From a virus: a stretch of DNA of 64,000 nt. Numbering within the stretch: the stretch's first letter is position 1; every line of letters begins with the position of its first letter. The notes beneath the pieces were generated by a model. It did not search any database and was not told the DNA's origin. It was given only the letters and a program-made list of their open reading frames with translations. The stretch is taken from IMG/VR virus record IMGVR_UViG_3300030060_005313, positions 1 to 64,000 of that record; one strand, written 5' to 3'. Of the stretch, positions 13,246-60,074 are shown in pieces. A program made the position numbers and the translations under genes.

Positions 13246-13246
13246 G

Positions 13247-24083: not shown

Positions 24084-25174
24084 AAGTAGGTATTACAGGC
24101 TCTAATGGTTTCATAGGATATCACTTATGGGTTCATCTAAAATATTTAACTAAACCAATCGATGATTTAGAAGTAATCAAATTAAGTAGAGATTTAAAAG
24201 AAGTCGGCAAGTGTGATGTAGTGGTTCATTTAGCAGAAAAGAATAGGGGGGATGAGGATGAGATATACCATAATAACATATCATCTGCAAGTACATTAGC
24301 ATCCACAATGAATGGTAATCAACGAATATTATATGCCTCTTCAATACATGAAGATGATGATTCAGTATTTGGAAGATATAGAAAACAAAATAAAAAGATG
24401 TTTAAGAGTTGGGCAAAATCTACTGGTGGTTCATTTTCGTCATTGAGAATACCTAATGTTTTTGGCCCATTCTGTAAACCAAATTACAACTCTTTCATTG
24501 CAACCTTTTGCCACAAACTAATAAATGATGAGGAGATACAGGCTAACTCTAATGAGGTTGATTTAGTGTACGTTCAAAATCTGTGTAGACAAATTATGGA
24601 AATAATATTGGAGAGAGGTTGTGCAGGATATGAGGAAAGTTACACTATACAATCAGATGTTAGATATAGTGTTCAGTATGTTTACACTAAACTAGCTATG
24701 TTCAAAAAGAGATATGTCGATAATAATATAATACCAGATGTACACAAACCATATAATACATTCGAATTAGATTTATTCAACACATTTAGGTCACACCTAA
24801 CCAACAGACTAATCACTATGAATAGTAATTCAGATGATAGAGGATACTTATCTGAAACTATTAAAACTGATACGGGTGGGCAATCATTCTTTTCAACCAC
24901 CAAACCAGGTTACATCAGAGGACAACATTTTCATATGAGAAAATTAGAAAGATTTTGTGTCTTAAAGGGTAACGCTGATATTAATCTAAGGAAGATTGGA
25001 ACAGATGAAGTAATCACTTACAAAGTTTCAGGTAGTAAAACACAATATATAGATATGCCGTTATTTTACACCCACAATATCACACCATCAGATAACAAAG
25101 AAATAATAACATTATTTTGGACTAATGAATTGTTAGACAAAAATGATACAGATACCTATTGGGAGGATGTTTAA
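24080..25174 (+). CDS. FnlB/CapF/WbjC-like SDR reductase with C-terminal cupin
   Basis: TGSNGFIG, PNVFGPFCKPNYNSFIATFC, SDDRG, TKPGYIRGQHFH..KLERF, YTHNI, DTYWEDV. Confidence 0.88.
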   Translation: MKVGITGSNGFIGYHLWVHLKYLTKPIDDLEVIKLSRDLKEVGKCDVVVHLAEKNRGDEDEIYHNNISSASTLASTMNGNQRILYASSIHEDDDSVFGRYRKQNKKMFKSWAKSTGGSFSSLRIPNVFGPFCKPNYNSFIATFCHKLINDEEIQANSNEVDLVYVQNLCRQIMEIILERGCAGYEESYTIQSDVRYSVQYVYTKLAMFKKRYVDNNIIPDVHKPYNTFELDLFNTFRSHLTNRLITMNSNSDDRGYLSETIKTDTGGQSFFSTTKPGYIRGQHFHMRKLERFCVLKGNADINLRKIGTDEVITYKVSGSKTQYIDMPLFYTHNITPSDNKEIITLFWTNELLDKNDTDTYWEDV

Positions 25175-25848
25175 TGGGATATTCAATGAGAGAACTCACA
25201 AAAATAGTTCCTTTACTATCAGAACATTCGGATAAAACCGTAATGTGTGAGCTTGGTAACAGTTATATAAAAGGAAAGGAAGTTGTAAATTGGTTATATT
25301 CTCAAGACTTCGAACTTGCACGTGATATACCTATAGGTGGTGAACAACATAATAAAGGTATAGTTTCTAAACATCTTTGGGAAGGAATCGGTTATGAATA
25401 TCTGTCAATAGATATGAATAAATTAGATGGTGCACATTATTTTGATTTAAGAAAGAAACTACCTACCTATCTGAAGAATGATTTTGATATAGTTTTAGAT
25501 ATAGGCACTATAGAACATGTAGACAATCAGTATATGGCTTTTTTTAATGTTGATTATATGACTAAAGTTGGTGGTATAAACATACACTTTTTACCAAAGG
25601 TTGGTACCTGGCCTCAACATTGTAGGTATTATTTTGATACTGATAATTTTGAAAAATTGGCAGACATTTGTGGTTACGATATTTTGAACATATCGGAGGA
25701 ATATCATGATGCAGGTACGTGGATTTTTGCTGCTTTGGTTAAAGGAGATAAAGAATTTCCAACCGAAGAAGAATTTAAAACTGTTGGTATACATTATACA
25801 GATCAGATGTCATTTGATAGAAAAATATATCCGTACGCATATGAATAG
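25174..25848 (+). CDS. Class I SAM-dependent methyltransferase
   Basis: CELGN, SIDMN, FDIVLDIGTIEHV, KVGG. Confidence 0.75.
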   Translation: MGYSMRELTKIVPLLSEHSDKTVMCELGNSYIKGKEVVNWLYSQDFELARDIPIGGEQHNKGIVSKHLWEGIGYEYLSIDMNKLDGAHYFDLRKKLPTYLKNDFDIVLDIGTIEHVDNQYMAFFNVDYMTKVGGINIHFLPKVGTWPQHCRYYFDTDNFEKLADICGYDILNISEEYHDAGTWIFAALVKGDKEFPTEEEFKTVGIHYTDQMSFDRKIYPYAYE

Positions 25849-27592
25849 AATAGATTTAAAAAATATAGAAAATGAGTTACTAAAGTGTGAAATTGTTTTA
25901 GATAAATGGGGTAGAATTGCATATGGTGTTAATCAATCTCGAAAGGTACTCTATGATAGAAAGAGAAATCTGTACTACAAAATATTTGATAAAGAATATT
26001 GTCGTAGAGAAAATTTTATAAGAGCTGTTAAAGCTGGTTACTTCGAAGAGGTGGCTCCTGCTCTTCTGTCACTAATAGTAGATGGTGATGATATAGTCGG
26101 TTATATTTGTGAAGGTGGAGAGACATTAACTACACCTAATTCTATTCACATATTACAAGAAAAACTATTAAAGTTGGTAGATAATACTAAACTATTCTAT
26201 TATGATTTAGTGCCACAAAACATAGTCGTAATGAGAAATACTGGAAAACTAAGTCTTATAGATTTAGAGAGTGTATATCATATAGATGAGCTATACAGAA
26301 TAGATAAACACAAAGCTGTGGTAAAACCAGTCGAATATTTTAAAGAATTAGAAAATAAATGGAGAGAAAACATGGATAAGGTTATCAGTTTTATACAACC
26401 TAGTAGAAATAACTTAAAGTATCTAAAGTGGAGTTATGACTCTATCAGAAAGAATTTAGGATACCGACATGAGATATGTTGGGCAGATGATTTCTCTGAT
26501 GATGGAACTTGGGAGTGGATGCAAGAGATTGCAGAAAAGGATAAGAACGTAAAGATACATAGAAACGATGGGCCAACCAGACTAGGACACACAATACTAT
26601 ATGATACGTTAATAAATAATTATGCAACTAATGATATCGTTATGATATATCATGCCGATATGTATGCCTGTCCAAAATTAGATGAAGAGGTTCTCAAACA
26701 TTTGGAACCAGGTAAGGTGGTAAGTGCAACTCGTATAGAACCACCACTACATCCTGATGGGCCAGAAAAGATACTCAAAGACTTTGGTATAGAACCTGAA
26801 GAATTTGATGAGTTTGGTTTGATGAGATTTTTAGACGAGGGAGTGGATTATAGTAAAAAACCCACCAATGGTATATTTGCACCTTGGGCTATATATAAAG
26901 AGGACTTCCAATCAATAGGTGGTCACGACCCATTATATGCACCACAATCAAAAGAAGATTCCGATATATTTAATCGATTCAAATTGAACGGGTATGAGTT
27001 AATTCAGACTTGGAAAGGGTTTGTATATCATATGACTTGTAGAGGTAGTAGATTCAAAGATGGTGCTATGAGAAATCCAGCTGGACAGGTCTTTATGAAA
27101 GGCAGGGAATCATCAGAGTGGTTAGCTCAAAATCTAAGAAGTACTCGTAACTTTATTCGTAAATGGGGCCATATGGTACAACATGACCACCTATTACATC
27201 CTGTTATACCACCAAAATATGATATAGCATTTGTTGCGTATCGTTGTAGTAAAAAGATACTCTATGAATTAGAACCTTGGTGTAATGTTGTATATTTAGA
27301 TTTGAGTGATTCGGATGGTATGGCTGAGTACAAACGAGAAGAACAGCCAAACACATCATTCGAATTAGACGAAAGAATAAAATTGTATGGTAATAGTAAG
27401 ATATCAGAGCTACATGATATTTGTGTCGAATTTGATGCAGATAAACTTACACCAGAAAATTTTCAAACTATTGTAAACCTATCAGCTATAATTCAGAATA
27501 GTGGACAGGTAGGAGTCATGCAGTATGATATATTCAAATTTTTTATAAATTCTTTAGATACATACGAAAAAGATTTAATTTTAGTCAAATAA
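25841..27592 (+). CDS. Kinase-like domain fused to GT2 glycosyltransferase
   Basis: N-part YYKIF, YYDLVPQNI, LIDLES (kinase-fold motifs); from 26372 ISFIQPSRN, ADDFSDDGT, HADM, EDSD, YHMTCRGSR. Confidence 0.8.
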   Translation: MNRIDLKNIENELLKCEIVLDKWGRIAYGVNQSRKVLYDRKRNLYYKIFDKEYCRRENFIRAVKAGYFEEVAPALLSLIVDGDDIVGYICEGGETLTTPNSIHILQEKLLKLVDNTKLFYYDLVPQNIVVMRNTGKLSLIDLESVYHIDELYRIDKHKAVVKPVEYFKELENKWRENMDKVISFIQPSRNNLKYLKWSYDSIRKNLGYRHEICWADDFSDDGTWEWMQEIAEKDKNVKIHRNDGPTRLGHTILYDTLINNYATNDIVMIYHADMYACPKLDEEVLKHLEPGKVVSATRIEPPLHPDGPEKILKDFGIEPEEFDEFGLMRFLDEGVDYSKKPTNGIFAPWAIYKEDFQSIGGHDPLYAPQSKEDSDIFNRFKLNGYELIQTWKGFVYHMTCRGSRFKDGAMRNPAGQVFMKGRESSEWLAQNLRSTRNFIRKWGHMVQHDHLLHPVIPPKYDIAFVAYRCSKKILYELEPWCNVVYLDLSDSDGMAEYKREEQPNTSFELDERIKLYGNSKISELHDICVEFDADKLTPENFQTIVNLSAIIQNSGQVGVMQYDIFKFFINSLDTYEKDLILVK

Positions 27593-49860: not shown

Positions 49861-49917
49861 TTTTTTATCGAACTGATATTTATAATTGTAATAATGTTTC
49901 AAACAAGGAGACTAAAA

Positions 49918-50133
49918 ATGAAAAACGTACTTAAATTAATATTGTCATTAGTAATTATGTTTGGTGCTGTTCCAACAGTTCAAGCTGTTCCAGCTCAAGC
50001 ATGTGAGATGACTTGTGAAATGGCATGTGCTGATGAAGATATTAAAAAGAAGAAAAAGAAAAAGAAGAAAATCGGTGGTAAAGGAAAGAAGAAGAAGAAA
50101 GGATTCTTTTCAAAAGTATTCGGGAGTAAATAA
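49918..50133 (+). CDS. Secreted peptide with CEMxC repeat and poly-Lys tail
   Basis: AAGGAG SD; signal peptide; CEMTCEMAC then KKKKKKKKKIGGKGKKKKKGFFSKVFGSK; TATTTATA at 49877-49884. Confidence 0.65.
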   Translation: MKNVLKLILSLVIMFGAVPTVQAVPAQACEMTCEMACADEDIKKKKKKKKKIGGKGKKKKKGFFSKVFGSK

Positions 50134-50494: not shown

Positions 50495-51781
50495 ATGTTG
50501 AAGAAACTTATGATGGGTTTACTATTAACTACATCATTACTTAGTCAAAATATAGTTGGGGACTTTTTTAAGTATTCTACTGCATATGCTAGTTTTAGTC
50601 TGAATGCTCCACGCTATCAGGACGATAGATTTGCTATTATAGGGGGATTGAGTACAGGCCAGTTAGAAATCAGTAGGGACAAGAGAGAATTAAAACCTGA
50701 TTTCCAAACATCATTCGGTTTAAGAAAGATTGGTAGATTTCAATACGAACCAAAAAGAGGTGTAAAGTCTGCTGGTAAAGGTGGTACTTGGTATGATGGT
50801 TCAGAACAGAATGCTAATGAAAGTGCCACATTTGGTCCTGTTAAAGGCTGGGAGTACTTAATTAAATTGTCAGAAGGTAGACAATGGGGCAATGATTATG
50901 TTAATAGAGAATTTTGGCTAAGATATATTGGTGATTATTTGATGGCTAAAGTTGGTGTTACTGAATTAGGATTAGAGGATATCAAATATACACAAGGTGA
51001 TATTAGACTTCATCTAACACCTGAAGCATTAAATGATAAATTTCATTTATCTATTGGTGTGAAACATAGACAACATCCTGTATATGGATTTGATGCGATG
51101 GTATTGGATACAACTTGGTACAGAGGTGAATGGTGGAAGTTTGCTGAGAAAGCATTTGGTATAGACGATAATGCTTGGTTTACACAAGAGTACTATGAGA
51201 ACGGAGATTTGGATGTTCAGTTGTATGAGTTAGATCCTGAGACTGGTGAACTAAGACCAATTGAAGGTGGTGGTCCTTTTTGGAATGACGATGGTAGATT
51301 TGTTGGAGTTGACTGGTTGTGGAGAGACCAAGATGGTAGAATCTTTGCTTATACGGACAGAGAGTATTTCTTATATCACTTTCCTGGTATGTTAGAAGAA
51401 TATATCGGTGGAGTCAAGAAAAGTTTGGGTAGTCAAAACGAAACCTCATTAGTGTTGGGTATTGATTTTTATCACTATGGAGAAAATTGGTGGTTACATA
51501 CTTGGGGAAATTGGTTACCTTATCACTACGGACATACAACACATGCATATCACAATGCAGCCCATTACAGAAAACACAAAGATGATGGTGGCAAACCACA
51601 TGAGTTTATGTTTATGGACAAAATGTGGCATAGTTGGAATGACTATGATATGGGTGCAATATTCGGAGTAAAGGTTCAGGATAATCTTGGAGTCTTTGCT
51701 GAAGGAAGATATTTGTATTATTGGGAGAGACCAGCATACGATATCAAATTAGGAATTAATTATCAATTTATGGGATTTTAA
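50495..51781 (+). CDS. Outer-membrane beta-barrel-like protein
   Basis: Signal peptide; aromatic amphipathic strands; ends LGVFAEGRYLYYW...IKLGINYQFMGF. Confidence 0.65.
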   Translation: MLKKLMMGLLLTTSLLSQNIVGDFFKYSTAYASFSLNAPRYQDDRFAIIGGLSTGQLEISRDKRELKPDFQTSFGLRKIGRFQYEPKRGVKSAGKGGTWYDGSEQNANESATFGPVKGWEYLIKLSEGRQWGNDYVNREFWLRYIGDYLMAKVGVTELGLEDIKYTQGDIRLHLTPEALNDKFHLSIGVKHRQHPVYGFDAMVLDTTWYRGEWWKFAEKAFGIDDNAWFTQEYYENGDLDVQLYELDPETGELRPIEGGGPFWNDDGRFVGVDWLWRDQDGRIFAYTDREYFLYHFPGMLEEYIGGVKKSLGSQNETSLVLGIDFYHYGENWWLHTWGNWLPYHYGHTTHAYHNAAHYRKHKDDGGKPHEFMFMDKMWHSWNDYDMGAIFGVKVQDNLGVFAEGRYLYYWERPAYDIKLGINYQFMGF

Positions 51782-51782
51782 A

Positions 51783-52391
51783 ATGACACACGAGGAAATA
51801 TACAATACAGTAAGAATGATTTGCGGTTCACTACTAATGGTAGGAATGTTAATAATACCAAGTTGTGAAGATGAAATAGTAGAAGAGGAAATTGTTTTAG
51901 AACCATCTATGCAACTTTGGGTAAATGGTGATTACATAGACCCATATACTTACTATGCACAAATAAATACTTATGGTGAAAAAGTTTTAGGTGATGATGG
52001 TAAGATTAAAAAATTATTCGTTCTACACCTACAAAGAGAAGTAGGTAGAGTTTTACCAGAGTTAGAACACTATGCTGGTATATGGTATGATGAAGATGGA
52101 GAAGACAATGCTATGTTAATTGATCCTGGTTTGTATTTGAACTACGGTCCGACAGATACATTGTCTCATACAAGAGAACAAACAATGAACATGGAGATTA
52201 TTGGTAGTTTTGATTACACAGAATTTGCACAATCAGAAATATACATAAATAATGACAATAAAATTTCTGGTATGGCAAATGGTAAATTTTACAATCCATA
52301 TAGAGATGAAATGCAGATTGGCTTATTAATTTTTGAGAATATAGAAATAGGAACAGATCCAGACGCAACGTTTTACACTGGTGGAAATTAA
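51783..52391 (+). CDS. Putative lipoprotein
   Basis: Hydrophobic N-region ending IIPSC, acidic tether. Confidence 0.6.
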   Translation: MTHEEIYNTVRMICGSLLMVGMLIIPSCEDEIVEEEIVLEPSMQLWVNGDYIDPYTYYAQINTYGEKVLGDDGKIKKLFVLHLQREVGRVLPELEHYAGIWYDEDGEDNAMLIDPGLYLNYGPTDTLSHTREQTMNMEIIGSFDYTEFAQSEIYINNDNKISGMANGKFYNPYRDEMQIGLLIFENIEIGTDPDATFYTGGN

Positions 52392-52395
52392 ATAA

Positions 52396-53031
52396 ATGAA
52401 TGGTGATATAAAAATAGGTAAGTTACTATGTGATGAAGATATAATCACTAAAAGACAACTGAACAAAGCACTACAGTCTCAGGTAAAAGGTGATAAACGC
52501 ACAATTGGTGAAATTTTAGTTGATTTAGGTTTTTGTGATTTCGATGATATTACTAATGCATTACTAAACCACGATTCTGATACTACACATCATGAAGAAA
52601 AAACTGAAGAAATACATCCTGAGTCAGAGACAGTCATAGAAGAACCTAAAGAAGAACCAAAGAAAAAAGAACCAATAGAACTAAGTGAAGATAAAGTATT
52701 AGATACTAAATTCACATTATCTGTACAAACAATGATAGCAGCTGGTACAGGTTTGGCATCATTGATTGGTATGTGGTATGCTTTACAAGCAGAAATAGAA
52801 GAGGCAAAGGAATTACCAGCCATTGATATAGAAAAGATTTTTTCGGATGAATATCCATCGAAACCTGAAGGTCATAATTGGCCTCGATCTTATGAACAAT
52901 ATAAAACACAAGTAGGCCAACTTCAAGAAGATATGGATGAAGTATTTGAACAGTTAGAGGAATATGAAGAAACCATAGATGAGTTGGAAAAACAAGTAAC
53001 TAATTTAAGGGTAAAAGTAGGGAGTAAATAA
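52396..53031 (+). CDS. MshEN/GspE-N-like domain + TM + coiled-coil protein
   Basis: KIGKLLCDEDIITKRQLNKALQSQ...RTIGEILVDLGFCDFDDITNAL tandem motif; TM MIAAGTGLASLIGMWYAL; acidic coiled coil. Confidence 0.75.
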   Translation: MNGDIKIGKLLCDEDIITKRQLNKALQSQVKGDKRTIGEILVDLGFCDFDDITNALLNHDSDTTHHEEKTEEIHPESETVIEEPKEEPKKKEPIELSEDKVLDTKFTLSVQTMIAAGTGLASLIGMWYALQAEIEEAKELPAIDIEKIFSDEYPSKPEGHNWPRSYEQYKTQVGQLQEDMDEVFEQLEEYEETIDELEKQVTNLRVKVGSK

Positions 53032-53405
53032 TGAAGTATTTAATAGGGCTATTAATATTCCTGTCTACTACACTAGCACAAGTAAATGACAAGAACTTTA
53101 AAGAAAAGATAAATGGTGGTATAGTCGTCGCCATTTTTACATCTGAATGGCAGGAACAAGAGTTAGATAAAAAAGTACTGAAAGGAGTAAAGGGGTATCA
53201 AGATTGTGAGATTATCTACGTTGCCAGTGAGCAAGCAAAAAAGGTTACTAAGAAACTAAGATTTAGAAACTTCCCATCGATTGCCCTATTCTTTGACGGA
53301 AGTAAAAAAGAAACTTGGAAGGCAGATATGGATGGCGAAGTTGATTGTTCTTCTAAAGATATAAAGGATGCAATAGACGATATGTTGGCAGAAGATGTAT
53401 TTTAA
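53031..53405 (+). CDS. Secreted thioredoxin-fold protein lacking CxxC
   Basis: Signal peptide; VNDKNFKEKI...VVAIFTSEWQ...FRNFPSIALFFDG. Confidence 0.7.
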   Translation: MKYLIGLLIFLSTTLAQVNDKNFKEKINGGIVVAIFTSEWQEQELDKKVLKGVKGYQDCEIIYVASEQAKKVTKKLRFRNFPSIALFFDGSKKETWKADMDGEVDCSSKDIKDAIDDMLAEDVF

Positions 53406-53418
53406 TGATACAATAATA

Positions 53419-53435
53419 GTGTAACAGGTGTAACA
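53419..53435. promoter_or_regulatory. Direct repeat, candidate upstream activator site
   Basis: GTGTAACA-g-GTGTAACA, ~120 bp upstream of a sigma54-type promoter. Confidence 0.4.
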
Positions 53436-53440
53436 TTTTG

Positions 53441-53468
53441 AAAACCTCACTTTTTAGTGGGGTTTTTT
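53441..53468 (+). terminator. Rho-independent terminator
   Basis: AAAACCTCAC-ttttta-GTGGGGTTTTTT. Confidence 0.75.
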
Positions 53469-53550
53469 GTTGCGTACTCTAAGTTATTAGTATATAGTAA
53501 TTTAAAAAACTAATAAGAAAAAAGTAAAAAAGTTTTCTATATTGCAAAGT

Positions 53551-53567
53551 TTGGTACAGTTATTGTA
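53551..53567 (+). promoter_or_regulatory. Sigma54-type (-24/-12) promoter of the pilin operon
   Basis: TTGGTACAGTTATTGTA: GG and GT separated by exactly 10 nt, matching TGGYAC-N5-TTGY. Confidence 0.6.
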
Positions 53568-53602
53568 CATATATAGGTAAATAACTAAATAGGAGAACTG
53601 AA

Positions 53603-54229
53603 ATGTTCAAAACAATCAAACGATATCTAAAGAGCACAAATGGTAACTCATTAGCTGAGTTCGCAGTAACAACTGCAATGATGGCTACATTGGCTACCAC
53701 TGCCGCACCTAAATTTTCTGGTGTTGGTGAAGGTGCTAAAGAGAAAAAGACAATGGCCGATATTGACAAAATTGTCAAGTCCGCTAATAACTTTTATAAC
53801 CAAAAAGTAACCGAAGAAGGTCGTGGGAGATTTCCTGGCCAAGTCAAGTATGATGAGGTTGTTGGTGGATATGCTTCCGATACACTTATTGTACAAGGTT
53901 TGGGTGGATTCACTTCTTACGAATCATCAGAGGGTTCTAATTGGGTTTCTGTATTTGGTACAACAACTGCAGGTGCTCAAGCTCCAAGTGGTCATAACAT
54001 TGATGTGTCAGAAGATGATAACAAAGATGGTTCATTTGATCCTTCCGTTGGTGCTGAAGAATTCTTAGACCAATTTGGTGGCAACCCAATCAAGACACCA
54101 TTTCAGGATGGTCATTACATCTATGCAGTAATCGCTGGTGGTGGAAGTGGTTCATCTTCTTATGCTCCAATCTTGTATGTCGCTGATTTAGAAAACCCAT
54201 CAAACTTCTTTAAGAAGTTACAGCCGTAG
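53603..54229 (+). CDS. Type IV pilin-like protein (atypical G|NSLAE site)
   Basis: Basic leader ending Gly, Glu at +5, hydrophobic helix ending APKF; AGGAG SD. Confidence 0.75.
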   Translation: MFKTIKRYLKSTNGNSLAEFAVTTAMMATLATTAAPKFSGVGEGAKEKKTMADIDKIVKSANNFYNQKVTEEGRGRFPGQVKYDEVVGGYASDTLIVQGLGGFTSYESSEGSNWVSVFGTTTAGAQAPSGHNIDVSEDDNKDGSFDPSVGAEEFLDQFGGNPIKTPFQDGHYIYAVIAGGGSGSSSYAPILYVADLENPSNFFKKLQP

Positions 54230-54239
54230 GAGATAGAAA

Positions 54240-54665
54240 ATGAAAAATCAGAAAGGATTCACATTAATAGAACTTATTATGGTTACAATCATTTTAGGTA
54301 TTTTGGCTGCTGTTGCTATTCCTCGATATATGACATCGGTTACGAAAGCAGAAGAAGCGGCTGAGGATGCGGTTATTAGTGCAATCAAAGCTGGTTTAGA
54401 AACTTATGCTGTAGAACAACTTATGGAAAATGGCCGTAGAAGTTGGCCTGATAATCCATGGGATGCTTTAGAAACTAAACCTGCTGGATACACTACGGAC
54501 GCTACTGATGCAGATGTTGATGGTGAGTGGACATACAATACCACTTCGAAAAAAATCACACATCAGCGTGGTGATAACTCTCGTGTAGGTTGGCAATATG
54601 ATGAAGGGGTACAAACAGGAGATGATGCTGCTGTTGGTACACTTGGTGTAAGAGCTGATTTGTAG
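54240..54665 (+). CDS. Type IV pilin / pseudopilin
   Basis: KG|FTLIELIMVTIILGILAAVAIPRY N-methylation motif. Confidence 0.95.
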   Translation: MKNQKGFTLIELIMVTIILGILAAVAIPRYMTSVTKAEEAAEDAVISAIKAGLETYAVEQLMENGRRSWPDNPWDALETKPAGYTTDATDADVDGEWTYNTTSKKITHQRGDNSRVGWQYDEGVQTGDDAAVGTLGVRADL

Positions 54666-54674
54666 GAGTTAACT

Positions 54675-55115
54675 ATGAGAAACTCTAAAGGGTTTACTCT
54701 GATAGAGTTGGTAGTAACTATTGCTTTAGTGGGGATACTCGTTGGTTCGGCTATCCCCACTTTTCATAGAGCGGTAAGTGAAACTCAGATATCAGTAAAT
54801 GTCTCTAATATGACAATCATAAAACAAACATTTATGCAATATTACTACGACAATCATATGAGCGGTAATCCACACTTTCCACAATTACCACAAGATAGCC
54901 TGATGGATGCTACATACCGACAAACTGTACTAGGGGATGGTAGAACACCTGATATGCTGTTTAGTGGAGATTTGCCTTACAATACAAATCAAAAGCCTTA
55001 TATTTATTATTGGGAAAACGATACGTTAAATGGATATGTGACTAAACGTATTATAATAAAAGATACAGACCCTGATAGTCCATCTTTTGAAAAAGAAGTA
55101 GTTGGAGAAATTTAG
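54675..55115 (+). CDS. Type IV pilin / pseudopilin
   Basis: KG|FTLIELVVTIALVGILVGSAIPTF. Confidence 0.93.
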   Translation: MRNSKGFTLIELVVTIALVGILVGSAIPTFHRAVSETQISVNVSNMTIIKQTFMQYYYDNHMSGNPHFPQLPQDSLMDATYRQTVLGDGRTPDMLFSGDLPYNTNQKPYIYYWENDTLNGYVTKRIIIKDTDPDSPSFEKEVVGEI

Positions 55116-55510
55116 TGAGTAAAGGCTTTACACTAATAGAAATATTAGTTGTGATTCTTTTGATTGGTATAATGAGTGCAATAGCAGTACCACGATTTGA
55201 GAAAAGAATCGAGCTAGAAGAATTAAAACACGAAAAGAAATTCACATATACATTATGGGAAGAGTTGGAAGTATATGCAAAGAAACAATATGAATTGACA
55301 GGTGAACAAAGTTGGCCTGAACATCCATTATCTGTTTTAGGTAGAACAAGAAATATAGTAGTCACTTATGATTTAGGAATACCTGATGATGATAATGAGT
55401 GGCAGTTTGATGGAACTAATTTATACCATAGGAGAATGAATAATGAAATCTGGTATTACCAATATAATCCCAATACTTTTTTTCTTTCTGAACATCCAAT
55501 TAGGCTATAG
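55115..55510 (+). CDS. Type IV pilin / pseudopilin
   Basis: KG|FTLIEILVVILLIGIMSAIAVPRF. Confidence 0.93.
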   Translation: MSKGFTLIEILVVILLIGIMSAIAVPRFEKRIELEELKHEKKFTYTLWEELEVYAKKQYELTGEQSWPEHPLSVLGRTRNIVVTYDLGIPDDDNEWQFDGTNLYHRRMNNEIWYYQYNPNTFFLSEHPIRL

Positions 55511-55832
55511 CGATACTACTGATATAGAATTAGATTTAGATGCCATGTGGGAGAATACTGTATGGGAAGAAATACAAGATGTAGTTGATGTAGGCTACGA
55601 AGTTGAGAAAGTAACAGATGTTGCTGGTGTTCGTGGAGCAGAGGCAGAAGACGAAGCATTAGCACTTTTATATTACAGAAAAAGTATGAAAGGATTATCC
55701 CTTTTAGATTTACAAAAGGCTTATGGTAAGTTAGTCAATAAAAGAGAAATTATGATAAAGGATGGGTTGAATACTAAAAAAATAGATGGTTTTATTATTA
55801 CATTAAAAGGAAAAATACAAAAAAAGTCTTGA
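55443..55832 (+). CDS. Secreted hypothetical protein
   Basis: Signal-peptide-like N-terminus; VAGVRGAEAED motif; last gene of the pilin operon. Confidence 0.6.
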   Translation: MKSGITNIIPILFFFLNIQLGYSDTTDIELDLDAMWENTVWEEIQDVVDVGYEVEKVTDVAGVRGAEAEDEALALLYYRKSMKGLSLLDLQKAYGKLVNKREIMIKDGLNTKKIDGFIITLKGKIQKKS

Positions 55833-55858
55833 CTTGTACTGCATTTATTTTGTAGCTT
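55829..55858 (+). promoter_or_regulatory. Early sigma70-type promoter
   Basis: TTGACT-N18-TAGCTT; ATG follows after 6 nt. Confidence 0.78.
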
Positions 55859-55864
55859 TACTAT

Positions 55865-56389
55865 ATGAATGAATGTAAAAAATGTCAAGCTGAAATGGAT
55901 AAACATCGTCTTCACTTGGGTTACTCAGAATGTGTTGAGTGTTCAAGTGTAAAGAAGTATGTGTCTCATACCATATACCCACACAAAACAGGTGCTTGGG
56001 TACAACCAGTTTCAGAAGAACAATCAGAAAATTTAAGTAGGTTAGATAGAAGGGGCGTTGGTGGTTCTAAGAAAGCAAAAGGTGTTTTTGCAGATAAGAG
56101 TTGGGATAGATTTTTGGAGAACTATCTTAATCCTAAACCACCTAAAAAGAAACATAAGTCAAAGCCAGTAGTAAATATCTTTATTCCAATAAAAGAAGCT
56201 ATGAAAAAAGTTATTGATGAGTTTGATAGCTATGGATATGAATCTGCTTGTCAACTTACACAATCACTATATTCTGAAGATAAAATTAGTCTTGTAAGTA
56301 AATCAAAAATCATAAATGAATTGTCAAGTCTACAAATGATGACAACTAAACAAAGAAAGTTTATGAAAAAACTTCAAAATAATCCTTGA
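55865..56389 (+). CDS. N-terminal zinc-finger protein (DksA/TraR-like C4 finger)
   Basis: CKKC...HRLHLGYSECVECS; no SD, apparently leaderless. Confidence 0.6.
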   Translation: MNECKKCQAEMDKHRLHLGYSECVECSSVKKYVSHTIYPHKTGAWVQPVSEEQSENLSRLDRRGVGGSKKAKGVFADKSWDRFLENYLNPKPPKKKHKSKPVVNIFIPIKEAMKKVIDEFDSYGYESACQLTQSLYSEDKISLVSKSKIINELSSLQMMTTKQRKFMKKLQNNP

Positions 56390-56415
56390 CTCGCATTGCA
56401 TTTTATTCGTAGCTT
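56386..56415 (+). promoter_or_regulatory. Early sigma70-type promoter
   Basis: TTGACT-N18-TAGCTT. Confidence 0.78.
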
Positions 56416-56438
56416 AACATATCAATTAAAGGAAAAAT

Positions 56439-58478
56439 ATGACAAAGATAAAACACAATTTTAATCCGATGGCTTTACGAGAGAGACACTCTGCAAGTTC
56501 TCGGACTAACAACTATTCATCTTTTTGGTTAGATGAGGGTTGGGATACCACCGGTTCTATCTTCGATGATGAAGAGAAGAAAAAAGGTGTAGACTTAGTT
56601 GCATTGGCCTCTTATCGTAGAGCCATTAGTAATTTTGTTTCTATTGTAACCGGTGAGTCTGATATCAAAGTTACTTTCAATTCACATGGAGATAGTTATA
56701 CTGATGGTAAGTCAGTTGTTATCTCTTCTAAATTAGATGATAAACTATTTGACTCAACTGTTGGTTTGGCTCTTCACGAAGGTTCTCACATCAAACTATC
56801 AGATTTCGATTTTCTAAAAAATCTTACTGGTCACATACCAACCACACTACTCGATCAAGCTACTAAAATTGGTACTGACTATTTTACAGATGTTAAAAAT
56901 CTACTTAACTATGTAGAAGATAGGAGAATTGATTACTTTGTATTCTCAAACTCACCTGGTTATAAAGGTTACTATCATTCAATGTATGATAAGTATTTTC
57001 ATTCAAAAGTAATCGATAAGGCTCTCTTAACTACTGAATACACTTCATTAGATTTAGATTCATATATGTTCAGAATTATCAATCTTACTAATAAGAATTC
57101 AGACTTAGATGCTCTACCAGGTTTGAGAAAAATATACAATACTATCTTTAGCAAAGTAAAAACATTATCTTCAACCAGTGAGTCTTTCTACATCGCTTGT
57201 AAAGTTTATCAAATCATTTTAGATAACATTACTCCAAAGTCAAAAATTGATGGTAATCAGGTTCCACAACCATCTGATGATGGTAACGGTAATGAGTCTT
57301 TAGATTCCTCTGGTGATAGTAATGATACTAAAGATTCTTCCGAAGAATCTGTTTCTCAATCTCAACAACCTTCCGATAAACCAGAATTATCAGATAATCA
57401 GAAAAAGCAACTTGAAAATGCAATTAGAAAGCAAAAGAAATTTATGGATGGTGATATTCAAAAGAAAAAGTTGACTAAGAAAGATAAGGCGGCTATGGAT
57501 ACTGTTGAATCATCCGGTATGAGTTACGTTGATGTCGCTGGTGTTACTGATAGATGGACAGGTAAAAAGACTCCCACTAAGGTTTTGATGGTTAAAAAGT
57601 TCAACAAAGCTTTGGCTGAGTCTGATACAATCGGTATGATTTCTAATCCATCATATTCTTGGTATCGTGATGAAAACAAAGAAGCTATCGATAAGGGTTT
57701 GGTTATGGGTACTATCTTAGGTAGAAAGCTTCAGGTTCGTGGTGAGTCTCGTGAGACTAAGTGGTCTAGAAAAGATAGTGGTAGAATTGATAAGAGATTG
57801 ATTGCTGAGTTGGGTTTTGGTAATGATAGAATCTTCCACACTTCTTTTGTAGAACAATACTCAGATGCTTTCTTACATATCTCAGTTGACGCTAGTGGTT
57901 CGATGGGCGGAGATAAGTGGACAAATACTCAAACTTCAGTAGTCGCAATTGCTAAGGCTTGTTCAATGATAAACAATGTTGATTTAGTTATTTCATACAG
58001 AAGTACTCAAACTTCCGGTGGTAGATACAATAGAGGTGGTAAGACTTATCCACTAATGTTGATTGCTTATGATTCTAGAGTTGACAAAATTAACAAAATC
58101 AAAAATCTATTTCCTCTATTACATCCTGCAGGTACTACACCAGAGGGTTTATGTTTTGAGGCTGTGATGAAAGAAATTGAAGTTGGTTCAAATGATAAGG
58201 ATTCTTACTTTCTTAATTTTTCAGATGGGATGCCGATGTTTTCTAATGATGATATTGATTACAATTGGGATACGGCAATTAATCATACTTCTAAAATGGT
58301 TAAAGAAATCAAAGGTCGCGGTGTAAAAGTTCTTAGTTACTTTATCGGTGGTAGATATGATTCACATGACGAAAAAGGTACATTCACAAAAATGTACGGT
58401 TCTGATGCTGAGTACATCGATGTAACTTCTGTTCTTCCAGTTGCAAAAACAATGAATAAGAAATTCTTACAGAAGTAA
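56439..58478 (+). CDS. HExxH metallopeptidase-like + vWA domain protein (CobT-like)
   Basis: SYTDGK, LHEGSH, NYVEDRRID, acidic linker, MIDAS DASGSM, GTTPEG, FSDG. Confidence 0.88.
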   Translation: MTKIKHNFNPMALRERHSASSRTNNYSSFWLDEGWDTTGSIFDDEEKKKGVDLVALASYRRAISNFVSIVTGESDIKVTFNSHGDSYTDGKSVVISSKLDDKLFDSTVGLALHEGSHIKLSDFDFLKNLTGHIPTTLLDQATKIGTDYFTDVKNLLNYVEDRRIDYFVFSNSPGYKGYYHSMYDKYFHSKVIDKALLTTEYTSLDLDSYMFRIINLTNKNSDLDALPGLRKIYNTIFSKVKTLSSTSESFYIACKVYQIILDNITPKSKIDGNQVPQPSDDGNGNESLDSSGDSNDTKDSSEESVSQSQQPSDKPELSDNQKKQLENAIRKQKKFMDGDIQKKKLTKKDKAAMDTVESSGMSYVDVAGVTDRWTGKKTPTKVLMVKKFNKALAESDTIGMISNPSYSWYRDENKEAIDKGLVMGTILGRKLQVRGESRETKWSRKDSGRIDKRLIAELGFGNDRIFHTSFVEQYSDAFLHISVDASGSMGGDKWTNTQTSVVAIAKACSMINNVDLVISYRSTQTSGGRYNRGGKTYPLMLIAYDSRVDKINKIKNLFPLLHPAGTTPEGLCFEAVMKEIEVGSNDKDSYFLNFSDGMPMFSNDDIDYNWDTAINHTSKMVKEIKGRGVKVLSYFIGGRYDSHDEKGTFTKMYGSDAEYIDVTSVLPVAKTMNKKFLQK

Positions 58479-58663
58479 TGATTACTAAGGTTTTAAAATG
58501 GTTACACAACAGAAAACTAAACACGCCAATGTGTCCTTGTGGGTGGAAAATGATTCCATCCACTCGGAAACATTTTGAACAATATTGGACATGCAAATGG
58601 AAAGAATGCACTTGGGAAGCATTTGCGACAACAAGCTATAGAATTAGATTTTGGAAATCGTAA
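58478..58663 (+). CDS. Small zinc-finger protein
   Basis: CPCG...CKWKEC; TAATG overlap. Confidence 0.5.
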   Translation: MITKVLKWLHNRKLNTPMCPCGWKMIPSTRKHFEQYWTCKWKECTWEAFATTSYRIRFWKS

Positions 58664-58842
58664 ATGGGATTTTTACTACATTCAAAAATGGTTAGGGATA
58701 TGGTTCAAATTTTTCTAACAAAGTATATAGAAGAGTGTCGAGAAAATGATTCAACAGACCATACACAATTTGTAAAGGACTTATTCAAGTATTTGCGATA
58801 TGGAGAATTATCAAAAAACTTTAAAAAAAATGAAAAAAGTAC

Positions 58843-58872
58843 TTGACTCATGTGCAATTTTATTCGTAGCTT
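58843..58872 (+). promoter_or_regulatory. Early sigma70-type promoter
   Basis: TTGACT-N18-TAGCTT. Confidence 0.78.
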
Positions 58873-58877
58873 AAGGT

Positions 58878-60074
58878 ATGATTTTGAGAGATAAAACAAA
58901 CAACTTAACAAAAGGAAAAAACAATATGTCAAACGTTGTTGTAAAAATAGAAATGTCGGGTAACCGATATAATGCATGGGATGCTGATGGTAATAAATTC
59001 ACATCTCAAATTGGTAATGGTACTAGGAAAAGTGCCTTCCAAAAAGGTATGGCTCTTGAACAAAGAGTCAATAAAAATGGTAAAACTTTTTGGTGGAAAG
59101 TTCCGATGTCAGTTTTTGAGGCTTCCACCGCACCAGTAATCAATACCACTGGTATTGACATCCCTACCGATCATGAGGAAGTTTTGAACTTCATTCACAC
59201 TTCATATAACATCAAGCCACAAGGTTTAGTTATGAAAGAACTAAAGTGGAAGTACTTAGTTCGTTCTGCTGTTCGTGGTAAGAATATTCTGATGACAGGT
59301 CCTGCGGGTTGTGGTAAGACAATGGCAGCTAAGTCATTGGTTAACTCACTTGACAGACCAGACTTCTACTTCAACTTGGGTGCAACTCAAGACCCCAGAG
59401 CCACCTTGATTGGTAATGTACACTTCGATAAAAAGAAAGGTACTTACTTTTCAGAATCTCTGTTTGTCAAAGCGATTCAAACTCCAAATGCAGTTATCCT
59501 ATTGGACGAGTTGAGTCGAGCCCATCCTGATGCTTGGAATATTCTAATGACAGTTTTAGATAGTGGTCAGAGATATCTCAGACTTGATGAGTCTGATGGT
59601 CAAGACACTATCAATGTGGCTGAAGGTGTTACTTTTGTCGCTACTGCTAATATTGGAAATGAGTATACATCTACCAGAGTTATGGATAAGGCTCTAATGG
59701 ATAGATTCATTATTGTTGAGATGGATGTGTTGAACTCTGAAGAAGAACATGGATTACTTAACTATATGTTCCCTCATGTTGATTCAGACTTACTAAAGTC
59801 TGTCGCCGAGATTTCAACTTTGACTCGTAATGAGGCTAAGTCTGAGTCAGGTAGGTTGTCAACTGGTATTTCAACCAGAACTTCGGTTGAGATTGCTGGA
59901 CTACTCTTCGATGGTTTCAGATTAGATGAGGCGGCAGAAGTTACTGTCTATCCTCAGTTTTCTGATGATGGTGGACTTGAGTCTGAGAGAACTTATGTGA
60001 AGCAGTTGGTTCAAAAGTATGTTTCTGATGGTTCTTCCGATGACTTATTTAATGAAGAAGAGTTAGATTCTTAA
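58878..60074 (+). CDS. MoxR/CobS-like AAA+ ATPase (alternative start 58926)
   Basis: GPAGCGKT, LLDELSRA, ATANIG, MDKALMDRF, STR sensor. Confidence 0.92.
   Translation: MILRDKTNNLTKGKNNMSNVVVKIEMSGNRYNAWDADGNKFTSQIGNGTRKSAFQKGMALEQRVNKNGKTFWWKVPMSVFEASTAPVINTTGIDIPTDHEEVLNFIHTSYNIKPQGLVMKELKWKYLVRSAVRGKNILMTGPAGCGKTMAAKSLVNSLDRPDFYFNLGATQDPRATLIGNVHFDKKKGTYFSESLFVKAIQTPNAVILLDELSRAHPDAWNILMTVLDSGQRYLRLDESDGQDTINVAEGVTFVATANIGNEYTSTRVMDKALMDRFIIVEMDVLNSEEEHGLLNYMFPHVDSDLLKSVAEISTLTRNEAKSESGRLSTGISTRTSVEIAGLLFDGFRLDEAAEVTVYPQFSDDGGLESERTYVKQLVQKYVSDGSSDDLFNEEELDS

What the first reader, a model, noticed from the sequence alone, without database searches (positions are those of the whole stretch)
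52396..55832. Phage-encoded type IV pilin operon with an MshEN-domain membrane protein: candidate pilus-hijacking system
Seen: four consecutive prepilin-like genes (three G|FTLIE, one G|NSLAE) in a genome with a T4-type replisome. They are preceded by a protein with a tandem MshEN/GspE-N-like motif fused to a TM helix and coiled coil rather than to an ATPase, and by a secreted CxxC-less thioredoxin. No prepilin peptidase, PilB/PilT ATPase, PilC or secretin is in the window. Established: MshEN domains bind c-di-GMP on PilB/MshE/GspE ATPases, and pili are common phage receptors. Inference: the phage feeds its own pilins into the host machine to change the filament (superinfection exclusion, adhesion, grazing avoidance or DNA uptake). 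The ATPase-less MshEN protein may act as a decoy or c-di-GMP sink. The first MshEN repeat is degenerate (K for R, D for G), so ligand binding is uncertain.
Basis: partly seen in the sequence, partly recalled or inferred. Interest (0 to 1): 0.9.

Follow-up and report, generated by a model that had tools for sequence, protein, structure and literature searches.

The report
Ocean phage carries host pilus genes
A large uncultured ocean phage carries five pilus genes copied, on-switch included, from its probable host (SAR406/Marinimicrobia bacteria) but none of the pilus-building machinery, so infected cells most likely build or re-coat their pili with phage-made subunits; beside them lies a separate, phage-specific membrane protein that imitates the signal-sensing head of the host's pilus motor.

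Summary
53603-55510 encodes four consecutive prepilin-type proteins. Three pass Pfam N_methyl; the fourth is a pilin-fold family of its own. Upstream lie a 211-aa MshEN / TM / coiled-coil protein and a secreted CxxC-less thioredoxin-fold protein. The contig is viral (PolB, baseplate, terminase, portal).

New here: the pilin cassette, including the exported 129-aa protein at 55443-55832, is a copy of genes from a type IV pilus cluster of Marinimicrobia (SAR406). Identity reaches 74%, the gene order is the same, and the same sigma-54-type promoter sits at the same distance. No PilD, PilB or secretin was found in five related viral records, which are 51-71% complete.

The MshEN protein is not part of that cassette. 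It belongs to a phage-core block (outer-membrane barrel, MshEN protein, Trx-like protein) found in all 42 related viral loci. The pilins were seen in only 17 of them. The two units are separated by a terminator.

Best reading: host-machine-dependent pilus remodelling. This has laboratory precedents (Pseudomonas prophage P-FimU, archaeal virus SNJ2). Whether the MshEN protein acts on pili is open.

The same scan already reached the SAR406/sigma-54 reading on other genomes of this phage group. This is a new variant of a known kind, of moderate interest.

The parts
50495..51781 (+). 428-aa exported protein, probably an outer-membrane beta-barrel. First gene of the phage-core envelope block.
   Evidence: Read from the sequence: N-terminal signal peptide and a C-terminal aromatic residue. 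No Pfam, PHROG or NCBIfam hit. The nearest named ESM-Atlas clusters are outer-membrane barrel families at score 0.93-0.94, a lead only. Present in 41 of 42 related viral loci by tblastn; the miss is a 3.7-kb locus with 22 bases upstream. Not found in 5 host genomes. dN/dS median 0.14.
51783..52391 (+). 202-aa lipoprotein-like protein. Variable member of the envelope block.
   Evidence: Hydrophobic leader ending in a Cys, read as a lipobox from the sequence. No family hit. Found by tblastn at 35-86% identity in most but not all related loci.
52396..53031 (+). MshEN211. Cytoplasmic four-helix MshEN_N-type domain (residues ~6-60), disordered acidic/Lys linker, one TM helix (~110-138), periplasmic conserved segment and coiled coil (to 211). 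No ATPase.
   Evidence: NF053729 at 41.4 bits, cut-off 38. PDB profile hits to PilF, PilB and MshE. AF2 N-terminal pLDDT 76-90. VIA top 5 rows are all T4P/T2SS ATPase N-domains, Z 8.6-6.2. 4,687 relatives at E<=1e-3 in metagenomes. dN/dS median 0.13. No full-length homolog in 301 genomes of the host phylum.
53031..53405 (+). Trx124. Secreted thioredoxin-fold protein without CxxC. Its start overlaps the stop of MshEN211.
   Evidence: Found by tblastn in 38 of 42 related loci; the other four loci end within 500 bases after the MshEN gene. Not found in 5 host genomes.
53440..53472 (+). Terminator-like hairpin followed by a T run. Ends the MshEN/Trx unit.
   Evidence: Read from the sequence. The consensus scan did not list it, because the stem contains a G-T pair.
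53552..53567 (+). Sigma-54-type promoter element, TGGTAC-N5-TTGTA, 36 nt upstream of the first pilin's ATG.
   Evidence: The relaxed motif is present at the same relative place in 18 of 18 phage cassettes (window plus 17 loci). It is also present upstream of 71 of 85 host P208-type genes, mostly as canonical TGGCAC-N5-TTGCT. Those 71 are 71 of all 93 motif hits in 481 kb of host loci. Only 6 (+) and 2 (-) hits in the 125.6-kb phage record.
53603..54229 (+). P208. Pilin of a family of its own: 14-residue leader, G|NSLAEF, Glu5. Probably the major-pilin type of the host system.
   Evidence: Pilin fold. 317 representative clusters. 47 cellular loci at 39-70% identity, 20 of them titled Marinimicrobia or Neomarinimicrobiota. 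In hosts it is the first pilin gene after pilC, in tandem arrays of 1-5 copies. Phage copies nest inside the host clade. dN/dS median 0.19.
54240..54665 (+). pil141, a GspG/PilA-like prepilin (G|FTLIE).
   Evidence: N_methyl 36.7 bits. GspG model 48 bits, below cut-off. Host homolog directly downstream of the P208 homolog in 23 of 47 cellular loci, at 51-78% identity (up to 74% in loci judged cellular).
54675..55115 (+). pil146, a prepilin (G|FTLIE).
   Evidence: N_methyl 35.4 bits. Host homolog next in order at 30-43% identity in most loci (29-66% over all; the 66% row is L095, a 3.7-kb contig that looks like phage DNA).
55115..55510 (+). pil131, a prepilin (G|FTLIE) with GTG start. A divergent paralog of the pil141 type.
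   Evidence: N_methyl 26.8 bits. In most host loci it matches the same gene as pil141, at 27-43% identity. In L073, L074, L076 and L092 it matches a gene downstream of the pil141 homolog.
55443..55832 (+). g129, a small exported protein. Last gene of the cassette.
   Evidence: Signal peptide read from the sequence. No family hit. Homolog at 52-64% identity in 5 of 5 host genomes, each about 10 kb beyond the secretin of the same pilus cluster.
55829..55858 (+). Phage promoter motif TTGACT-N18-TAGCTT. Marks the return to phage-type transcription units.
   Evidence: 13 matches in the window against 0.04 expected, all on the + strand. None lies between 36541 and 55829.

Best explanation
The region holds two separate units.

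(1) Positions 53552-55832 are a five-gene cassette captured from the type IV pilus gene cluster of the phage's probable host, Marinimicrobia (SAR406). It has a major-pilin-type gene (P208) with its sigma-54-type promoter, three N-methyl prepilins and a small exported accessory protein.

The phage encodes no prepilin peptidase, assembly ATPase, platform protein or secretin. The prepilins must therefore be cut by the host's PilD and polymerised by the host's PilB/PilC/secretin machine. Infected cells would then build or re-coat their pili with phage-made subunits.

The most likely benefit is inferred, not shown. A changed pilus surface could keep other pilus-binding phages off the infected cell, as shown for Pseudomonas prophage P-FimU. 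Keeping or boosting pilus-dependent attachment during a long infection is the second choice.

(2) Positions 50495-53405 are a phage-core envelope block: an outer-membrane barrel-like protein, a lipoprotein, MshEN211 and a redox-dead thioredoxin-fold protein. Its membrane protein carries only the c-di-GMP-binding four-helix half of the MshEN domain. In the host this motif is found only on the two PilB-type ATPases. The block is not tied to the pilins genetically. It may read or soak up host c-di-GMP, or mimic the PilB N-terminus.

Shown: homology, synteny, promoter conservation, absence of machinery genes in the records held, and purifying selection. Inferred: processing, assembly, the benefit, and any action of MshEN211.
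For: Host origin
- A genome-contig scan with the P208 family found 47 loci. 20 are titled Marinimicrobia/Neomarinimicrobiota, 21 are unnamed bacteria and 6 carry other labels.
- Of 163 phage ORFs, only the cassette pilin genes (plus one short g129 match in L095) match these loci, so the loci are cellular.
- The order P208, pil141, pil146 is kept in 23 of 47 loci; pil141 identity reaches 74%.
- g129 has a homolog in 5 of 5 host genomes in the same cluster.
- Phage P208 copies nest inside the host clade.

Host machine
- The order is response regulator, PilD, PilB (with MshEN), sigma-54 activator, PilC, then pilins.
- PilC lies upstream of the P208-type gene in 26 of 47 loci.
- A secretin and PilM/PilO-like genes lie on the same contig.

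Promoter
- 18 of 18 phage cassettes and 71 of 85 host genes carry it at the same distance.

No machinery in the phage.

Not an assembly chimera
- The cassette is flanked by phage genes in 17 other viral contigs.
- Contigs from two other studies bridge the left junction: X2 at 53336-53707 and X3 at 53306-53611. X2 also bridges the right junction at 55709-56437, with 1-2 differing letters.

Selection: median dN/dS 0.19-0.39 for the five cassette genes.

Precedents: P-FimU and P-PilA (PMC12952977, passages read); SNJ2 (PMC12426801, abstract and discussion read).

MshEN unit. In hosts the motif is found only at PilB-type N-termini (9 hits, all in 559-590-aa frames). There is one GGDEF gene in each of the 4 host genomes searched, and no PilZ in 5 of 5.
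Against: - No experiment exists. Processing, incorporation and any phenotype are unknown.
- The host call rests on shared genes only. I tested no CRISPR spacer or tRNA match, and found phage contigs in none of the host single-cell genomes fetched.
- The viral records are 51-71% complete, so machinery genes could lie in unseen parts.
- The phage promoter has T for C in both elements (GGTAC, TTGTA). Some host copies share TTGTA. It may be weaker, or activator-independent.
- The tree forces at least two phage/host label changes, so the history is not one clean capture.
- dS is near saturation (0.84-1.4 for the cassette genes), so dN/dS values are rough.
- RNA-library contigs cover parts of the cassette, but such libraries can hold DNA, so transcription is not shown.
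- For MshEN211, both 24-residue repeats fail positions of even the relaxed published motif. Repeat 1 has Cys at position 7 and an invariant Asp at the Gly position. Repeat 2 has Thr for Arg/Lys, Cys at position 12 and His at position 24. The spacer is 6 residues, not 5. The second, alpha/beta half of the MshEN domain is missing.
Confidence: 0.65

Rival explanations
1. The phage pilins are poison subunits. They enter the host machine but block or shorten pilus assembly. The infected cell loses its pili instead of being re-coated. The outcome is again superinfection exclusion, or detachment from particles.
For: pil131 has no separate ortholog in most host loci and is a divergent paralog at 27-43% identity. 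The P-FimU paper raises the same possibility for truncated P-PilA proteins of virulent Pseudomonas phages (PMC12952977, passage read). A membrane MshEN protein that competes with PilB would act in the same direction.
Against: All four proteins keep full-length pilin architecture with Glu5. P208 and pil141 are 50-74% identical to host proteins and under purifying selection along their whole length. A complete promoter plus an accessory gene looks like a working set rather than a single inhibitor.
Confidence: 0.15
2. The MshEN211 block has nothing to do with pili. The barrel, lipoprotein, bitopic coiled-coil protein and Trx-like protein form a trans-envelope device of the phage's own. It could be a spanin-like outer-membrane disruption system or an injection block. 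The MshEN head would be its cytoplasmic c-di-GMP or timing input.
For: The block is core in 42 of 42 related loci, whether or not pilins are present. MshEN211 has the topology of an i-spanin (TM plus periplasmic coiled coil) and follows a lipoprotein gene. Neither the barrel nor the Trx-like protein has a host relative.
Against: No lysis gene was recognised among the neighbours scanned here. Upstream are PhoH and small unknown ORFs; downstream are CobT-like and MoxR-like genes. Typical i-spanins have no ~105-residue cytoplasmic domain (recalled). In the host, the only proteins with this motif are the pilus ATPases.
Confidence: 0.35
3. The pilin segment is a host insert created by mis-assembly, or a recently picked-up passenger without function.
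For: The genes are host-like and carry a host-type promoter. MAG bins contain short contigs that look like phage fragments: L076 and L095.
Against: The same cassette sits in the same place in 17 other viral contigs at 37-86% protein identity. Contigs from other studies bridge both junctions. All 18 phage copies share the TGGTA-N6-TTGTA variant of the promoter. dN/dS is well below 1.
Confidence: 0.03

Closest known systems
P-FimU and P-PilA: type IV pilus subunits encoded by Pseudomonas aeruginosa F10-like prophages, Xylella prophages and some virulent Pseudomonas phages (Sztanko et al., Cell Rep 2026, PMC12952977; summary and passages read)
   Same: Phage copies of host pilins with no machinery. 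P-FimU is incorporated by the host machine and blocks adsorption of pilus-tip-binding phages. The paper notes that some PilA-like genes occur in non-temperate phages.
   Different: Those are single genes, in Proteobacteria. Here there is a five-gene set (major-type pilin, three further pilins, an accessory protein) with a sigma-54-type promoter. It sits in a T4-like virulent-type ocean phage of an uncultured phylum. Nothing has been tested experimentally.
SNJ2 provirus pilins PilA1/PilA2 of Natrinema sp. J7 (Xiang et al., Cell Rep 2025, PMC12426801; abstract and discussion read)
   Same: Virus-encoded type IV pilins, acquired from host chromosomes, hijack the host secretion machinery and become surface filaments.
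   Different: That is an archaeal, temperate pleolipovirus. Its pili serve as receptor for a second virus and aid biofilm formation and motility. No MshEN-type partner is described.
Phage inhibitors of the pilus motor or platform: Tip (D3112, PilB), PfsE (Pf, PilC), Zip (PilZ) (as cited in PMC12426801 discussion; Zip from the search listing). Aqs1 (PilB) is recalled.
   Same: Phage proteins that act on the PilB/PilC level to change piliation and exclude other phages. This is what MshEN211 would do if it is a PilB-N mimic or c-di-GMP sink.
   Different: None of these is an MshEN-domain protein or a bitopic membrane protein. No action of MshEN211 on pili has been shown.
MshEN domain of MshE, PilB and PilF ATPases (Wang et al., Nat Commun 2016, PMC5013675; passages read)
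   Same: Tandem 24-residue repeats forming a four-helix bundle. The hydrophobic guanine-contacting positions are conserved (I7, L22, L26, I37, I52, L56 by my alignment to the motif).
   Different: Only the N-terminal half is present. It is fused to a TM helix and a periplasmic coiled coil instead of an ATPase or glycosyltransferase. Several motif positions deviate and the spacer is 6 residues.
PHROG 3433 'pilin' (moron category) and pilin genes annotated in Synechococcus phage ACG-2014f and in Vibrio phages
   Same: N-terminal prepilin motif in phage genomes.
   Different: The matches cover only the N-terminal 26-74% of pil141 at 30-52% identity. None has the P208-type gene, the cassette, or the MshEN211 or barrel genes. 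tblastn of the phage collection found no match for the latter two.

Membership tests
Type IV pilin / prepilin (class III signal peptide) | Short basic leader ending in Gly, then a hydrophobic N-terminal helix with Glu at +5 | tested here: met
   All four proteins: leaders of 6, 6, 4 and 14 residues; G|FTLIE three times and G|NSLAE once.
Type IV pilin / prepilin (class III signal peptide) | Pfam N_methyl (PF07963) over the gathering score | tested here: met
   Met for 3 of 4: 36.7, 35.4 and 26.8 bits against 21.2. P208 gives no hit, so for P208 alone this feature is not met.
Type IV pilin / prepilin (class III signal peptide) | Pilin fold: long alpha-1 helix packed on a beta-sheet head | tested here: met
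   Tested for P208 only. AF2 pTM 0.73. The top 19 of 19 VIA rows are pilins or pseudopilins, but Z is only 4.0-5.5. Foldseek found no PDB match at E<=0.001. The other three were not modelled.
Type IV pilin / prepilin (class III signal peptide) | Cleaved by a prepilin peptidase and assembled into a filament | not testable with these tools
   Needs expression with the cognate PilD and machine.
MshEN domain (c-di-GMP receptor of MshE/PilB/GspE type) | Curated sequence model of the 53-residue binding motif | tested here: met
   NF053729 at 41.4 bits, cut-off 38. PDB profile hits to PilF, PilB and MshE.
MshEN domain (c-di-GMP receptor of MshE/PilB/GspE type) | Two 24-residue repeats fitting the relaxed pattern of Wang et al. 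2016, joined by a 5-residue spacer | tested here: not met
   Repeat 1 fails at position 7 (Cys) and position 10 (invariant Asp). Repeat 2 fails at positions 1, 12 and 24. The spacer is 6 residues. The hydrophobic contact positions are kept.
MshEN domain (c-di-GMP receptor of MshE/PilB/GspE type) | Four-helix MshEN_N fold | tested here: met
   VIA: 5htl Z 8.6, 8pdk Z 8.1, 6f8l Z 7.6, 2d28 Z 6.9, 7lkm Z 6.2, all over residues 1-63.
MshEN domain (c-di-GMP receptor of MshE/PilB/GspE type) | Second (alpha/beta) subdomain covered by Pfam PF05157 | tested here: not met
   No PF05157 hit at E<=1. Residues 62-109 are modelled as disordered. The host PilB does hit PF05157.
MshEN domain (c-di-GMP receptor of MshE/PilB/GspE type) | Binds c-di-GMP | not testable with these tools
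   Needs ITC or DRaCALA on residues 1-65.
Thioredoxin (redox-active) | Thioredoxin fold with a CxxC active site | tested here: not met
   The fold is supported by profile (TXNDC5 E 2e-13). The CxxC position is replaced, and no Cys pair is conserved in 31 family members.
Sigma-54-dependent promoter | GG at -24 and GC at -12 with fixed spacing, plus a bacterial enhancer-binding protein | tested here: inconclusive
   GG and the spacing are kept. The -12 reads GT, not GC, in all 18 phage copies, and some host copies share this. The activator gene is in the host cluster, not in the phage.
Phage pilin replacement for superinfection exclusion (P-FimU type) | The phage pilin is homologous to a host pilin, is incorporated by the host machine, and blocks adsorption of pilus-binding phages | not testable with these tools
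   Homology to host pilins is met. Incorporation and exclusion need experiments.
Two-component spanin (considered for MshEN211 plus the lipoprotein) | Inner-membrane protein with a periplasmic coiled coil, paired with a small outer-membrane lipoprotein, in a lysis cassette | tested here: inconclusive
   The topology fits. No endolysin or holin family was recognised in the neighbours scanned. The lipoprotein is 202 aa and poorly conserved.
MSHA-type pilus system (considered for the host cluster) | MshE-type ATPase with MshEN, ExeA/MshM-like AAA protein, TPR protein, MshL secretin, no PilT in the cluster | tested here: inconclusive
   An AAA_22+PilM fusion, PilO, a secretin and a TPR protein are present. 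All NCBIfam equivalogs (PilB, GspE, PilQ, MshL) score below their cut-offs. I therefore call it only a type IV filament system.

The most novel reading that the evidence does not exclude
MshEN211 is a phage-made receptor or decoy that plugs into the host's very small c-di-GMP circuit. That circuit has one GGDEF gene per genome. The MshEN motif occurs only on the two PilB-type ATPases, and no PilZ was found. By soaking up c-di-GMP at the membrane, or by mimicking the PilB N-terminus, MshEN211 would set the state of the host pilus motor during infection. In the sub-clade that also carries the pilin cassette, it would gate when phage pilins are extruded. This would be the first virus-encoded MshEN-type second-messenger effector.
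Probability: 0.2. Interest if true: 0.8.

Novelty: new variant of a known kind. Interest (0 to 1): 0.55.

Why it matters
It gives a gene-based host assignment to SAR406/Marinimicrobia, a phylum without cultured members, for a very abundant ocean phage group. The group has 4,687 and 3,672 metagenomic relatives of two of its proteins.

It extends phage pilin replacement, so far shown for single genes in Pseudomonas prophages and an archaeal provirus, to a whole promoter-bearing cassette in a T4-like ocean phage.

It also shows that the host keeps tandem arrays of diversified major-type pilins, each with its own sigma-54 promoter. That is the pattern expected if pili are a battleground with phages or grazers.

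The ATPase-less, membrane-anchored MshEN protein is a concrete candidate for a viral c-di-GMP effector. It can be tested with a 65-residue domain.

Tried and rejected
- blastn of the region, and tblastn of MshEN211 and the 428-aa protein, against 50,697 phage records: no match.
- Foldseek of the P208 model against the PDB: nothing at E<=0.001. VIA-align gave the pilin rows instead.
- ESM-Atlas searches gave only viral unnamed clusters. For the 428-aa protein the nearest named clusters are weak outer-membrane-barrel leads. For MshEN211 residues 95-211 there was nothing useful.
- Complex prediction of MshEN211 (131-211) with Trx124 (18-124): score 0.01, verdict 'no answer'. This is not evidence either way.
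- My first, strict sigma-54 regular expression found nothing. The relaxed one, allowing T for C, was then used, with its background counted.
- Read laying: only short Logan contigs were available.
  - Parts of the stretch have no cover in some runs, which proves nothing.
  - One X2 contig joins 53517 to 55127, skipping 1609 bases with 32 other letters between. The shorter side is only 24 letters, at 90% likeness, so I do not count it as a cassette-less variant.
  - One RNA-library contig begins at about 53578, where a sigma-54 start site would be expected. Contig ends cannot show a start, so this is a coincidence to test, not evidence.
- NCBIfam could not place the host machine in PilB, GspE or MshL equivalogs, so I dropped the label 'MSHA pilus'.
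- Chimeric assembly and 'prophage or host island' were considered and rejected.
- Literature: searches (listings only, unless named above) showed no paper on a phage-encoded MshEN protein or on pilins in Marinimicrobia phages. Supplementary files were not opened and may list such genes.

Full report
THE SEQUENCE

The window is the first 64 kb of a 125,608-bp linear IMG/VR virus record, estimated 68% complete. The record is viral:
- family-B DNA polymerase at 2424-4922;
- baseplate wedge, large terminase and portal further along the record;
- 153 of 163 called ORFs on one strand.

The terminase is nearest to Microcystis phage Mel-JY01 (58%) and Flavobacterium phage immuto (54%), and only 31-34% identical to T4-like cyanophages.

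A phage-wide promoter motif, TTGACT-N17/18-TAGCTT, occurs 13 times on the + strand against 0.04 expected. None lies between 36.5 and 55.8 kb.

Four consecutive genes at 53603-55510 encode prepilin-type proteins.
- Three pass Pfam N_methyl. They are the only such matches in the record.
- The first, P208, has a 14-residue leader, G|NSLAEF and Glu5, but no family hit.
- P208's AlphaFold2 model (pTM 0.73) is a helix-plus-head 'lollipop'. The top 19 of 19 VIA-align rows are pilins or pseudopilins, though Z is only 4.0-5.5. Foldseek found nothing significant.

The 211-aa protein upstream, MshEN211:
- passes NCBIfam's curated c-di-GMP motif model (41.4 bits, cut-off 38);
- matches the N-termini of PilF, PilB and MshE by profile;
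- folds into four helices whose best structural match is MshE bound to c-di-GMP (Z 8.6);
- continues with a disordered linker, a TM helix and a long C-terminal helix.

The 124-aa protein is a secreted thioredoxin fold without CxxC.

WHERE THE PILINS COME FROM

P208 defines a small family of 317 representative clusters. Scanning one genome per prokaryote species with an alignment of that family gave 47 loci at 39-70% identity:
- 20 are titled Candidatus Marinimicrobia or Neomarinimicrobiota, several of them single-cell genomes;
- 21 are unnamed bacteria;
- 6 carry other labels.

Of all 163 phage ORFs, only the cassette pilin genes (and one short g129 match in L095) match these loci, so the loci are cellular.

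In 23 of 47 loci the P208 homolog is followed by a pil141 homolog (51-78%; up to 74% in loci judged cellular) and a pil146 homolog (30-43% in most).

Upstream, in 26 of 47 loci, lie in fixed order a response regulator, a prepilin peptidase, a PilB/GspE-type ATPase with an MshEN domain, a sigma-54 activator and a PilC/GspF platform protein.

Downstream are up to ten more N_methyl pilins and a LamG-domain protein. Then come an AAA+PilM fusion, PilO, a secretin, a CHASE2-cyclase, an FG-GAP protein, a TPR protein and a 152-aa protein. That last protein is the homolog (52-64%) of the phage's g129, in 5 of 5 host genomes.

All five genes of the phage cassette therefore have relatives in one host pilus cluster. 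Hosts carry 1-5 tandem P208-type genes. In a tree of 74 such proteins, the 11 distinct phage sequences fall inside the clade of the host copy that precedes pil141. At least two phage/host label changes are forced.

THE SWITCH CAME ALONG

A relaxed sigma-54 pattern lies 75-142 nt upstream of the Gly-cleavage codon in all 18 phage cassettes (as TGGTA[CT]-N5-TTGTA). It also lies upstream of 71 of 85 host P208-type genes (mostly TGGCAC-N5-TTGCT). Those 71 sites are 71 of only 93 pattern hits in 481 kb of host DNA. The phage record has 8 hits in total.

The lead came from another first-reader note on this window (e1-6156896); the test is mine. The activator gene is in the host cluster, not in the phage.

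NO MACHINERY IN THE PHAGE

There is no T2SSE match over cut-off, no Peptidase_A24 and no Secretin in this record or four relatives of 94-130 kb. tblastn with host PilD and PilC also found nothing. The records are 51-71% complete, so this is 'not found in what is held'.

NOT A CHIMERA

Seventeen other viral contigs hold the cassette downstream of the same phage genes. Contigs from two other studies bridge the left junction, and one bridges the right junction, with 1-2 differing letters. Median dN/dS against relatives is 0.19-0.39 for the cassette genes; dS is high, so this is rough.

THE MshEN PROTEIN IS A DIFFERENT UNIT

The barrel-like protein, MshEN211 and Trx124 occur in all 42 related viral loci. 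Exceptions are loci whose ends cut off the flanking gene.

The pilins are absent from at least 11 loci that hold >=7.9 kb downstream. A terminator-like hairpin at 53440-53472 separates the two units.

Neither the barrel nor Trx124 was found in five host genomes. In 301 genomes of the host phylum, nearly all matches of the MshEN211 profile were to the first ~60 residues of 570-600-aa PilB-type frames. Three short matches lay on small contigs or short frames. There was no full-length homolog.

In five host genomes the c-di-GMP motif occurs only on the two PilB-type ATPases (9 hits). There is one GGDEF gene in each of four genomes searched, and no PilZ in five; these MAGs are incomplete.

Against ligand binding, both repeats miss positions of even the relaxed published pattern, and the second MshEN subdomain is absent. 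In its favour, the hydrophobic contact positions that the paper found most important are kept.

HOW IT MOST LIKELY WORKS

Shown:
- a host-derived, selected, promoter-bearing pilin set in a phage without machinery;
- a host with the full machine.

Inferred:
- host sigma-54 RNA polymerase and its activator transcribe the cassette;
- host PilD cuts the leaders;
- host PilB, PilC and secretin polymerise the subunits;
- the pilus of the infected cell is rebuilt or re-coated.

The benefit is most likely exclusion of pilus-binding phages. This was demonstrated for P-FimU (PMC12952977). It fits the host's arrays of diversified major-type pilins. Attachment is an alternative.

For MshEN211 I hold two readings about equally: a c-di-GMP/PilB-directed effector, or the cytoplasmic input of a pilus-independent envelope device. 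Here I saw no lysis gene among the neighbours.

COMPARISON AND NOVELTY

Virus-encoded pilins that use the host machine are known: P-FimU and P-PilA, and SNJ2.

New here are the five-gene cassette with its switch, the virulent-type T4-like ocean phage, the uncultured host phylum, and the ATPase-less membrane MshEN protein.

Follow-up agents of this scan reached the same SAR406/sigma-54 reading on other genomes of this phage group. I saw those notes after my own. My literature searches found no paper on these genes. Supplements were not available.

Verdict: a real feature and a new variant of a known kind. Interest 0.55.

Noticed in passing
window 59-2311 (frame open from base 2): Another first-reader note (e1-6156903) calls this a phage-encoded TonB-dependent receptor. 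In my Pfam scan the 750-aa ORF matched no family at E<=0.001, so that reading needs a profile or fold test.
   Followed up: partly
window 11854-27592: A long run of glycosyltransferase genes (GT1, GT2) and a sulfotransferase-family gene inside the phage. This suggests surface-glycan remodelling alongside the pilin cassette.
   Followed up: no
window 56439-60074: A CobT-like 679-aa protein (phrog_5298 'cobalamin biosynthesis protein') and a MoxR/CbbQ-type AAA ATPase lie directly downstream of the cassette. They are also downstream in L017 and L024.
   Followed up: no
host loci L051, L053, L058, L070 (and others): Marinimicrobia genomes carry tandem arrays of up to five diversified P208-type pilin genes, most with their own sigma-54-type promoter. 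This looks like a pilin-variation locus.
   Followed up: partly
L103 6299-9208 (host genome G002): A CHASE2 adenylate/guanylate cyclase sits inside the host pilus cluster, between the secretin and an FG-GAP protein. This suggests cyclic-nucleotide control of the system in addition to c-di-GMP.
   Followed up: no
window 53578-53730: A contig from one RNA library (X19, record 4) begins at about 53578. That is 12 nt after the -12 element, where a sigma-54 start would be expected. Contig ends cannot prove a start; it is worth testing with raw reads.
   Followed up: no
window 53517 / 55127: One DNA contig of run X2 joins these two places with 32 other letters between, skipping P208, pil141 and pil146. 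The shorter side is only 24 letters. It may be a related phage with a different pilin set, or an artefact.
   Followed up: no
L076 and L095 (contigs binned in MAGs): These short contigs (2.7 and 3.7 kb) look like fragments of this phage group mis-binned into MAGs. L076 groups with phage sequences in the tree. L095 has a pil146 match at 66% and a g129 match. L095 sits in a MAG labelled Dehalococcoidia; L076 in one titled 'uncultured bacterium'.
   Followed up: partly
window 49894-50133: A 79-aa exported Cys-rich protein with a long poly-Lys tail lies just upstream of the envelope block. It has a weak NCBIfam hit to a Leptospira Cys-rich family, below cut-off.
   Followed up: no
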